The notes under the pieces: generated by a model
What the model was told of the DNA's origin: nothing
Seen by the model: the letters and a program-made list of their open reading frames with translations, nothing else
Database searches by the model: none
From: a virus
Taxonomy: Monodnaviria; Loebvirae; Hofneiviricota; Faserviricetes; Tubulavirales; Inoviridae
Reading direction: 5' to 3' (one strand)
Virus record (IMG/VR): IMGVR_UViG_2617270947_000002
DNA length: 8,569 bases
Made by a program: the position numbers and the translations under genes
Part shown: piece by piece, positions 7,392 through 7,459 of the stretch
How the letters are laid out: the number at the start of each line of letters is the position of its first letter
Position numbering within the stretch: position 1 is the first letter of the stretch

Positions 7392-7431
7392 GAGGCCGCT
7401 GCGGGATTCGATTTTCGCAGCGGCCTTTTCA
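7392..7431 (+). terminator. Rho-independent terminator after the cargo cassette, just inside the prophage end
   Basis: GGCCGCTGCG (7394-7403) pairs with CGCAGCGGCC (7417-7426), 13-nt loop, then TTTTC; it has a weaker T-tract on the other strand, so it may also stop hipA read-through. Confidence 0.7.
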
Positions 7432-7459
7432 ACATAACGAGTCGTACATTATGCGCACC
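7431..7459 (-). other. dif: dif-like XerC/XerD recombination site (hybrid prophage att junction)
   Basis: Minus-strand read GGTGCGCATAA-TGTACGACTCG-TTATGTT. The XerC arm GGTGCGCATAA and first 4 central bases match E. coli dif (GGTGCGCATAATGTATATTATGTTAAAT, from memory); the XerD-arm core TTATGTT is present but displaced by extra bases (spacer about 11 bp instead of 6). It lies 77 bp from the hipA stop, where I recall K-12 dif to be. Confidence 0.7.

What the first reader, a model, noticed from the sequence alone, without database searches (positions are those of the whole stretch)
7431..7459. Hybrid dif-like att site with intact XerC arm and a displaced XerD arm
The chromosome-proximal half (XerC arm plus TGTA) matches E. 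coli dif exactly, while the phage-proximal half carries TTATGTT after extra bases, giving a spacer of about 11 bp. That is the pattern expected where a phage attP recombined with dif by XerC-mediated exchange, leaving a site unlikely to act as dif. The functional dif would then be at the other prophage end, outside this window.
Basis: partly seen in the sequence, partly recalled or inferred. Interest (0 to 1): 0.7.

Follow-up and report, generated by a model that had tools for sequence, protein, structure and literature searches.

The report
Filamentous prophage junction at dif

Summary
Window 7427-7459 (- strand) reads GGTGCGCATAA | TGTACGACTCG | TTATGTTGAAA. That is an exact E. coli dif XerC arm, an 11-nt spacer that starts with TGT, and a 9/11 XerD arm. 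K-12 has the canonical 28-bp dif at exactly this position beside hipA.

On the phage (+) strand the three elements fold into a forked hairpin (z = -7.6). This is the attP1/attP2 layout of CTXphi-type elements, which integrate as single-stranded DNA by XerC-only strand exchange. CUS-1 and Ypf phages are already classed in this type.

The same hybrid site occurs in UM146, Y. pestis and 176 of 5426 complete E. coli genomes. Host-specific XerC arms remain in the hybrid, which places the crossover at the XerC-arm/spacer border.

Verdict: interpretation supported, already known, low interest. One side finding may be new: the attP2-hairpin module is shared with dif-targeting ISKpn21-like insertion sequences.

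The parts
7449..7459 (-). XerC-binding arm GGTGCGCATAA of the hybrid site, contributed by the host dif
   Evidence: It matches dif 11/11. Identity to K-12 runs from here rightwards. In relatives, host-specific arm variants stay at this position.
7438..7448 (-). 11-nt spacer TGTACGACTCG (attP1 central region, phage-derived). The first TGT matches the dif central region TGTATA.
   Evidence: Across 23 distinct relatives TGT and the final CG never vary, nt 4-9 vary, and the length is 10-11. Across 44 broader sites the length is 10-12.
7427..7437 (-). XerD-type arm TTATGTTGAAA of phage attP1 (9/11 to dif)
   Evidence: It is invariant in 23 relatives, and this invariance was not forced by the search pattern.
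7394..7425 (.). GC-rich stem-loop (GGCCGCTGCG / CGCAGCGGCC with a 12-nt loop) that caps the attP(+) hairpin. It looks terminator-like by eye.
   Evidence: The consensus terminator scan did not call it. Apical loop bases vary among relatives while the stem does not.
7366..7392 (+). attP2: an inverted second dif-like site, GGTTCGCACAA-TGACG-TTATGCTAAAG, with a 5-nt spacer
   Evidence: It pairs with attP1 in the single-strand fold. An equivalent site is present next to 41 of 44 distinct long-spacer sites.
7361..7464 (-). The whole attP(+)-derived forked hairpin region as it lies in the prophage. The - strand is the phage (+) strand.
   Evidence: DNA fold -32.7 kcal/mol, z = -7.6, 0 of 200 shuffles as stable. 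The authentic phage-phage junction from Y. pestis gives -31.2 kcal/mol, z = -7.9.
1..7448 (-). The part of the filamentous prophage that lies in the window. On the - strand: secretin 1-1359, Zot/pI 1274-2368, DUF5455 2369-2713, pIII 2710-4056, pVIII 4001-4243, pV 4452-4769, pII 4781-5833. On the + strand: HTH regulator 5857-6453 and two cargo ORFs of unknown function, 6542-6964 and 7021-7353.
   Evidence: Pfam and RefSeq annotation of L001. About 85% nt identity to the UM146 CUS-1-type prophage and 93% to the Ypf rep region.
7460..8569 (-). Chromosomal flank: the dif-hipA intergenic region and hipA (7536-8569, interrupted by a 289-nt deletion at 8464/8465)
   Evidence: 100% identical to K-12 MG1655 except for the deletion.

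Best explanation
Window 7427-7459 is the non-functional attP1/dif hybrid junction (attL in Ypf nomenclature) of a CUS-1/Ypf-type filamentous prophage. The phage integrated at the E. coli dif site by the CTXphi-type route.

Proposed mechanism:
- The phage (+) single strand, which is the window's - strand, folds so that attP1 (XerC arm, 11-nt spacer, XerD arm) pairs with the inverted attP2 (5-nt spacer). This gives a forked hairpin with duplex XerC and XerD arms and a bulged centre.
- Host XerC and XerD bind the hairpin and dif.
- XerC exchanges one pair of strands at the XerC-arm/central-region border. The exchange is stabilised by the TGT shared with the dif centre TGTATA.
- Replication converts the resulting junction into an integrated prophage.

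The products are (a) this hybrid, made of the host XerC arm plus the phage 11-nt spacer and XerD arm, and (b) a regenerated canonical dif at the far end, made of the phage XerC arm plus the host centre and XerD arm.

Shown here: the insertion point, the reciprocal products, the crossover position, the attP1/attP2/stem-loop anatomy and its conservation, the strand polarity, and the absence of an integrase.

Inferred from the CTXphi literature: the single-stranded substrate, XerC-only catalysis, resolution by replication, and the inactivity of the 11-nt-spacer site as a dif.
For: - K-12 has canonical dif at the orthologous position.
- A canonical 28/28 dif lies at the other prophage end in L001, L005, L006, L023, L024, L028, L031 and L034.
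- Host-specific XerC arms are retained in the hybrids, whereas the phage arm sits at phage-phage junctions and in the regenerated dif.
- attP2 is inverted 35 nt away, and the fold has z = -7.6 and -7.9.
- 41 of 44 distinct long-spacer sites have an inverted attP2 within about 125 nt on the XerD side, against 1 of 44 on the other side. The attP1 spacer is 10-12 nt and the attP2 spacer 5-6 nt.
- Variation among 23 relatives falls in the predicted unpaired bulge and apical loop, while TGT is invariant.
- The attP1 top strand lies on the same strand as gII through gIV, as (+)-strand integration requires.
- No integrase is present.
- Literature: CTXphi attP1 has a 12-bp spacer starting TGT and attP2 a 5-7-bp spacer. 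Integration leaves one functional dif plus non-functional attP1 and attP2. CUS-1 and Ypf are listed as CTX-type (PMC4246890, PMC3089051, PMC4266046, PMC3442271).
Against: - There is no compensatory covariation for the hairpin. Paired columns hardly vary in the 23 relatives, and shuffles do as well as the real alignment. Support for the fold is therefore thermodynamic and architectural only.
- Part of the invariance (alignment columns 63-83) was forced by the search pattern.
- The far-end dif was seen in near-identical genomes, not in the window itself.
- For Ypf, incoming phage was reported to integrate preferentially between tandem copies, at an 'imperfect dif' (PMC4266046). The long-spacer duplex site may therefore not be completely inert.
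- Nothing here tests catalysis.
Confidence: 0.9

Rival explanations
1. VGJphi-type integration. The double-stranded replicative form recombined with dif through attP1 alone, by XerC exchange. attP2 would be an irrelevant relic, and both junctions would remain Xer-competent so that the prophage can excise.
For: Both routes use XerC exchange on the XerC side and give the same two junction sequences, so the junctions alone do not separate them. Ypf was reported to insert at phage-phage junctions (PMC4266046).
Against: The spacer is 10-12 nt in all 44 distinct sites. Known duplex Xer sites, including VGJ attP, have 6-8 bp (PMC4246890). An inverted attP2 accompanies 41 of 44 sites, on the XerD side only. 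The pair folds far better than shuffles.
Confidence: 0.06
2. TLCphi/GGI-type integration, in which XerD makes the first strand exchange with help from a phage-encoded Xer activation factor.
For: The window holds two cargo ORFs of unknown function next to the att region.
Against: The XerD arm is well preserved at 9/11, not degenerate. Homology with dif is confined to the XerC side of the spacer. Arm polymorphisms put the crossover at the XerC arm. The cargo ORFs differ between relatives that share the same att module.
Confidence: 0.02
3. The site is not a recombination product. It would be a degenerate or mutated native dif (a 5-bp insertion), or a chance dif-like sequence beside a phage that integrated by some other means.
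For: None beyond the partial resemblance to dif.
Against: K-12 has intact dif at this position, and the sequences diverge exactly inside the site. Chance expectation is negligible. The identical hybrid is present at the same prophage end in UM146, Y. pestis and other genera. No integrase gene is present.
Confidence: 0.01

Closest known systems
CUS-1 (E. coli O18:K1:H7) and YpfPhi (Yersinia pestis) filamentous prophages integrated at dif
   Same: - The attP2, stem-loop and attP1 module is the same. The hybrid spacer and XerD arm are identical in UM146 (L005) and in Y. pestis NCTC5923 (L011, L020).
- The gene order is the same.
- A canonical dif lies at the secretin-side end. PMC4266046 reports that Ypf insertion reconstitutes an intact dif.
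- Variable cargo ORFs sit next to the att module.
   Different: - It is not the same phage. Identity to the UM146 prophage is about 85% over the structural and replication genes, and 93% to the Ypf rep region.
- The regulator region (5857-6453) and the last cargo ORF (7021-7353) have no counterpart in either.
CTXphi attP(+) / dif1 integration in Vibrio cholerae (Val et al. 2005 model)
   Same: - There are two inverted dif-like sites. attP1 has an over-long spacer that begins TGT (12 nt in CTX, 11 here) and attP2 has a short spacer (5-7 nt in CTX, 5 here).
- The (+) strand is predicted to form a hairpin.
- The crossover is on the XerC side.
- One regenerated dif and two non-functional sites remain (PMC4246890, PMC3089051).
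   Different: - The arms and spacers differ in sequence.
- The loop between the XerD arms is about 34 nt with a perfect GC stem, against about 90 nt in CTX. Relatives with loops of about 91 nt do exist.
- The host is Enterobacterales and the target is E. coli dif.
- There has been no experimental test for this phage.
VGJphi-type and TLCphi-type IMEX attachment sites
   Same: Both types are filamentous or satellite elements that use host XerCD and insert at dif.
   Different: VGJ has a single duplex attP with a spacer of about 7 bp, and its integration is reversible. TLC has a degenerate XerD arm and XerD makes the first exchange. Neither anatomy is present here.
ISKpn21-like insertion sequences (IS1202 family, ISAba32 subgroup) that target XerC/D sites
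   Same: - They sit 5 bp from the XerC arm of dif or of plasmid dif-like sites (L003, L004). They also sit beside hybrid sites of relatives of this prophage (L010, L023, L024) (bioRxiv 10.1101/2022.12.17.520857).
- They carry the same attP2 + stem-loop + XerD-arm module, about 93% identical to window 7363-7436.
   Different: - They are transposons with about 57-nt terminal inverted repeats and a DDE transposase.
- They lack the attP1 spacer and XerC arm, and they do not fold into the forked hairpin.
- They are not part of the finding itself.

Membership tests
CTXphi-type IMEX junction (ssDNA attP(+), XerC-only exchange) | The prophage is inserted at the host dif, flanked by one canonical dif and one hybrid dif-like site | tested here: met
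   The hybrid is at window 7427-7459. K-12 has dif there. A canonical 28/28 dif lies at the far end in L001, L005 and L006. The far end lies outside the window.
CTXphi-type IMEX junction (ssDNA attP(+), XerC-only exchange) | Two dif-like sites in inverted orientation: attP1 with an over-long spacer and attP2 with a short spacer | tested here: met
   attP1 has an 11-nt spacer and attP2 a 5-nt spacer, 35 nt apart and inverted. The pattern holds in 41 of 44 distinct sites.
CTXphi-type IMEX junction (ssDNA attP(+), XerC-only exchange) | The (+) single strand folds into a forked hairpin that forms duplex XerC and XerD arms | tested here: inconclusive
   The predicted fold is strong (z = -7.6 and -7.9) and lies on the gII-sense strand. 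There is no compensatory covariation and no physical test.
CTXphi-type IMEX junction (ssDNA attP(+), XerC-only exchange) | Homology with the dif central region is limited to the bases next to the XerC arm | tested here: met
   TGT is invariant and the rest of the spacer is unrelated to TGTATA and variable.
CTXphi-type IMEX junction (ssDNA attP(+), XerC-only exchange) | The crossover lies at the XerC-arm/central-region border | tested here: met
   Host arm variants (GGTGCACATAA, AGTGCGCATAA) stay in the hybrids, while the phage arm appears at phage-phage junctions and in the regenerated dif of L023.
CTXphi-type IMEX junction (ssDNA attP(+), XerC-only exchange) | No element-encoded recombinase | tested here: met
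   No integrase was found by Pfam or in the RefSeq annotation of the whole prophage.
CTXphi-type IMEX junction (ssDNA attP(+), XerC-only exchange) | XerC catalysis is sufficient, XerD catalysis is dispensable, resolution is by replication, and integration is irreversible | not testable with these tools
   This requires genetics or biochemistry. It is inferred from PMC4246890 and PMC3089051.
CUS-1 / YpfPhi phage lineage | Nucleotide-level relatedness and a shared att module | tested here: met
   85% identity to the UM146 prophage over 5.8 kb and 93% to the Ypf rep region. The hybrid spacer and XerD arm are identical. This is a relative, not the same phage.
Canonical chromosomal dif | A 28-bp site with a 6-bp central region between the XerC and XerD arms | tested here: not met
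   The spacer is 11 nt. No match to dif at 3 or fewer mismatches exists in the window.
VGJphi-type attP | A single duplex dif-like site with a spacer of about 7 bp | tested here: not met
   The spacer is 11 nt and a paired inverted site is present.
TLCphi-type attP | A degenerate XerD arm and a crossover on the XerD side | tested here: not met
   The XerD arm is 9/11 and the crossover is on the XerC side.

The most novel reading that the evidence does not exclude
The 72-nt attP2 + stem-loop + XerD-arm module (window 7363-7436) may be a portable unit shared between CUS-1/Ypf-type filamentous phages and dif-targeting ISKpn21-like IS1202-family elements. In both kinds of element the variable cargo genes end exactly at the outer edge of the attP2 XerC arm. 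This would fit a Xer- or hairpin-dependent route for swapping cargo genes between phages and insertion sequences that compete for dif (SIR2, STM4504-family and DUF6953 genes in the IS, unknown ORFs in the phages). A related possibility is that the hybrid site is not inert and remains a landing pad, both for these IS and for further phage copies.
Probability: 0.12. Interest if true: 0.6.

Novelty: already known. Interest (0 to 1): 0.17.

Why it matters
The site marks the boundary and the integration route of a filamentous prophage family linked to fitness in E. coli K1 and Y. pestis. Recognising it lets annotators place prophage ends to the base and tell the working dif from its scar. It adds no new biology, because the mechanism class and its application to CUS-1 and Ypf are published. 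The value here is confirmation plus a base-level anatomy of the spacer rules: TGT...CG is fixed, the length is 10-12 nt, and the middle is free to vary. The junction is also common, present in about 3% of complete E. coli genomes.

Tried and rejected
- Searching for a canonical dif in the window found none.
- The phage collection held no close relative by megablast. Only IKe and I2-2 matched, over gene I at 73-75%, so CUS-1 and Ypf were reached through E. coli genomes and genome contigs instead.
- Rfam found no family in the window.
- The consensus terminator scan did not call the GC stem-loop, so I do not claim it is a terminator.
- The covariation test of the hairpin found no compensatory changes. 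The relatives are too similar.
- The Gonzalez et al. 2002 paper (PMC135385) is not held in the library, so the original description of the CUS-1 att sites could not be read.
- I looked for a dif-like site at the left boundary of the swapped cargo cassette in the ISKpn21-like elements and found none.
- The IS version of the module does not fold into a forked hairpin.
- The L055 fold used a range that was too short to include its attP2 and is uninformative.
- A paper search for ISKpn21 together with filamentous phage found nothing linking them among the papers listed.

Full report
**1. Observation**

Window 7431-7459 reads AACATAACGAGTCGTACATTATGCGCACC. On the - strand the complete site is GGTGCGCATAA | TGTACGACTCG | TTATGTTGAAA (7459 down to 7427).
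- The XerC arm is an 11/11 match to E. coli dif.
- The spacer is exactly 11 nt and begins TGTA.
- The XerD-type arm matches dif at 9/11.
- No canonical dif is present in the window at 3 or fewer mismatches.
- Composite XerC-spacer-XerD sites with at most 4 mismatches occur twice in the window, both within 7366-7459. In 300 composition-matched simulations the mean was 0.017, and none had two.

**2. Context**

Left of the site the window encodes a complete filamentous-phage set on the - strand: secretin, Zot/pI, DUF5455 (in the pVI position), pIII, pVIII, pV-like and pII. An HTH regulator and two ORFs with no Pfam match lie on the + strand. No recombinase is present (RefSeq annotation of the same prophage).

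Right of the site, from 7445, the window is 100% identical to K-12 MG1655 (the dif-hipA region), apart from a 289-nt deletion inside hipA.

In K-12 the canonical 28-bp dif occupies exactly this position. The two sequences coincide from TACATTATGCGCACC onwards and differ to the left of it.

**3. The other end**

The window is 99.7-99.9% identical to E. coli LSN03-016011/A (L001).
- In L001 a perfect 28/28 dif lies in the same orientation 996 nt beyond the secretin gene, after two small ORFs. This is outside the window, as predicted.
- The same three-site arrangement (canonical dif, then attP2, then hybrid) is present in APEC E19057 (L006) and in UM146 (L005), an O18:K1-type strain with the CUS-1-type prophage.
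- It is also present in several IMG/VR prophage contigs.

**4.

A second dif-like site lies 35 nt inside the phage in inverted orientation: GGTTCGCACAA-TGACG-TTATGCTAAAG (7366-7392, + strand). A perfect 10-bp GC stem (7394-7403 pairing with 7416-7425) sits between the two XerD-type arms.

- On the - strand, which is the sense strand of gII through gIV and therefore the packaged (+) strand by established Ff/CTX biology, 7355-7465 folds into one long forked hairpin.
- In it the two XerC arms pair, the two XerD arms pair, and 7 of the 11 spacer bases bulge out. The fold is -32.7 kcal/mol with z = -7.6, and 0 of 200 shuffles fold as well.
- The authentic phage-phage junction from tandem Ypf copies in Y. 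pestis folds the same way (-31.2 kcal/mol, z = -7.9).

**5. Relatives**

An exact-pattern scan for the attP2/stem module found it in Lelliottia, Phytobacter, Kluyvera, Photorhabdus, Erwinia tracheiphila and Y. pestis (twice, in tandem copies), among others, and in 33 IMG/VR contigs.

Twenty-three distinct attP1-loop-attP2 sequences were aligned.
- The arms, the stem, the first TGT and the last CG of the spacer never vary. Part of this invariance (columns 63-83) was forced by the search pattern.
- Spacer positions 4-9 and the apical loop do vary.
Relatives at the same E. coli flank carry TGTT, TGTC or TGTG.

A broader structural scan (XerC arm + TGT + 6-9 nt + TTATGTT) gave 44 distinct sites with spacers of 10-12 nt.
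- 41 of them have an inverted attP2 (spacer 5-6 nt) within about 125 nt on the XerD side, against 1 of 44 on the other side.
- Loop lengths are about 32-92 nt.

A formal pair count found 99% of cells pairable but no compensatory changes. The hairpin therefore rests on thermodynamics and conserved architecture, not on covariation.

**6. Crossover position**

- In Y. pestis NCTC5923 the chromosome-side hybrid has the arm GGTGCACATAA, while the phage-phage junction has GGTGCGCATAA (L020 versus L011).
- In L023, L032 and L047 the hybrid keeps AGTGCGCATAA. In L023 the dif at the other prophage end has GGTGCGCATAA.

The XerC arm of the hybrid therefore comes from the host, and the arm of the regenerated dif comes from the phage. 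This is the reciprocal product expected from strand exchange at the XerC-arm/spacer border.

**7. Comparison with what is known**

- CTXphi attP1 is AGTGCGTATTA-TGTGGCGCGGCA-TTATGTTGAGG, with a 12-nt spacer starting TGT. attP2 has a 5-7-nt spacer, and the two sites are inverted and about 90 bp apart.
- The folded (+) strand is the substrate. XerC exchanges one strand pair and replication finishes the job.
- The products are one functional dif and two non-functional sites, and integration is irreversible (PMC4246890, PMC3089051).
- The same reviews list YpfPhi and CUS-1Phi as CTX-type. They state that the attP regions of these phages show the features for direct single-strand integration.
- The Ypf review reports inverted XerC/D site pairs and an intact dif regenerated at one prophage end (PMC4266046). 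PMC3442271 calls CUS-1 and Ypf enterobacterial relatives of CTXphi.

The window's phage is a mosaic relative rather than either phage. It is about 85% identical to the UM146 prophage over 5.8 kb and 93% identical to the Ypf rep region. Its regulator and last cargo ORF differ from both.

The full module plus hybrid is found in 176 of 5426 complete E. coli genomes.

**8. Verdict**

The mechanism is the published CTX-type route, so the finding is already known and of low interest. Two things remain inferred rather than shown: the catalytic steps, and the claim that the 11-nt-spacer site cannot act as dif. The reported preference of incoming Ypf for phage-phage junctions (PMC4266046) is a small caution on the second point.

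**9. Side observations**

- The 72-nt module 7363-7436 (attP2, stem-loop and the attP1 XerD arm) matches several hundred other E. coli genomes at about 93% identity, mostly on large plasmids.
- There it lies just inside the right inverted repeat of ISKpn21-like IS1202-family elements. These elements sit 5 bp from the XerC arm of dif or of a plasmid dif-like site, and they carry variable passenger genes (SIR2, STM4504-family).
- Between copies the passenger region is swapped from a fixed point after the transposase gene up to the first base of the attP2 XerC arm.
- The dif targeting by these IS is published (PMC10132070; bioRxiv 10.1101/2022.12.17.520857). I did not find the shared phage module mentioned in the passages I searched of those two papers, and a paper search for ISKpn21 together with filamentous phage listed nothing that links them.
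- The same IS also sit beside hybrid sites in relatives of this prophage (L010, L023, L024).
- Other side observations are listed separately.

Noticed in passing
window 7363-7436; L003 4001-4071; L004 4001-4073; also L009, L012, L017, L019: The attP2 + GC stem-loop + XerD-arm module is about 93% identical to a segment just inside the right inverted repeat of ISKpn21-like IS1202-family elements. These lie 5 bp from the XerC arm of chromosomal dif or of a plasmid dif-like site (TGTGCGCACAA-TCTATC-TTATGTTAAAT). One search found 638 E. coli genomes with a match, 475 places on plasmids, and 176 genomes with the full phage-type hybrid. Passenger genes (SIR2, STM4504-family) are swapped up to the first base of the attP2 XerC arm. 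I did not find this link in the two IS1202 papers I searched or among the papers listed by the search.
   Followed up: partly
L010 about 5030 leftwards; L023 1-140; L024 about 900-962; also L033, L047: In relatives, IS1202-family left ends sit 5-8 bp outside the XerC arm of the hybrid site. One example is AGAGGCTCAATGCTAATGT..., the same IS as in L004. Either the phage integrated at a dif that already carried the IS, or the IS also targets the hybrid site.
   Followed up: partly
window 7460-7490; L001 7006-7030; L020, L021, L038, L050: A motif (A)GGnAGAATCyGG lies 12-24 nt outside the XerC arm. It is shared by the chromosomal dif flanks of several Enterobacterales and by the phage's own left end (phage versus Y. 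pestis flank 20 of 22 aligned positions (21 bases) identical, z = 6.8). The ATG inside the XerC-arm complement opens a short frame MRTN..GRIW/Q in all of them. It could be a DNA motif, a tiny ORF or old phage remnants. This is unresolved.
   Followed up: partly
window 8464/8465 (hipA): The window lacks 289 nt of hipA relative to K-12 (L002 4784-5072), L001, UM146 and L036. The flank is otherwise 100% K-12. The deletion breaks the hipA reading frame (ORFs 7536-8477 and 8444-8569 are in different frames). All eight listed complete-genome hits span the junction in two pieces, so none of them has the deletion.
   Followed up: partly
L001 14001-15229 versus window about 5857-6486: Strain LSN03-016011/A carries a 776-bp tandem duplication absent from the window. 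It contains the phage regulator gene plus a 5' fragment of the replication gene.
   Followed up: no
window 5857-6453 and 7021-7353: The regulator region and the att-proximal cargo ORF have no counterpart in the UM146 CUS-1-type prophage or in Ypf. ORF 6542-6964 is shared with UM146 at about 95%. Neither cargo ORF has a Pfam match. The cargo next to attP2 differs in almost every relative.
   Followed up: partly
L005 (UM146) 10620-10830: Right after the hybrid site the UM146 record is full of N and ambiguous bases. The readable bases look like a mix of the phage left end and the chromosomal flank, as if tandem prophage copies had been collapsed in the assembly. hipA is flagged there as having too many ambiguous residues.
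   Followed up: no
L015 (Photorhabdus tasmaniensis) 5261-6886: A hybrid site and attP2 are followed only about 1.5 kb later by a dif with the arm GGTTCGCCTAA. This may be a miniature or decayed element using the same att module.
   Followed up: no
L029, L031, L036, L040, L048, L051: A sub-lineage has a 10-nt attP1 spacer (TGTCAACGCG) instead of 11 nt, with the same attP2. Spacer length is therefore not strictly fixed.
   Followed up: partly
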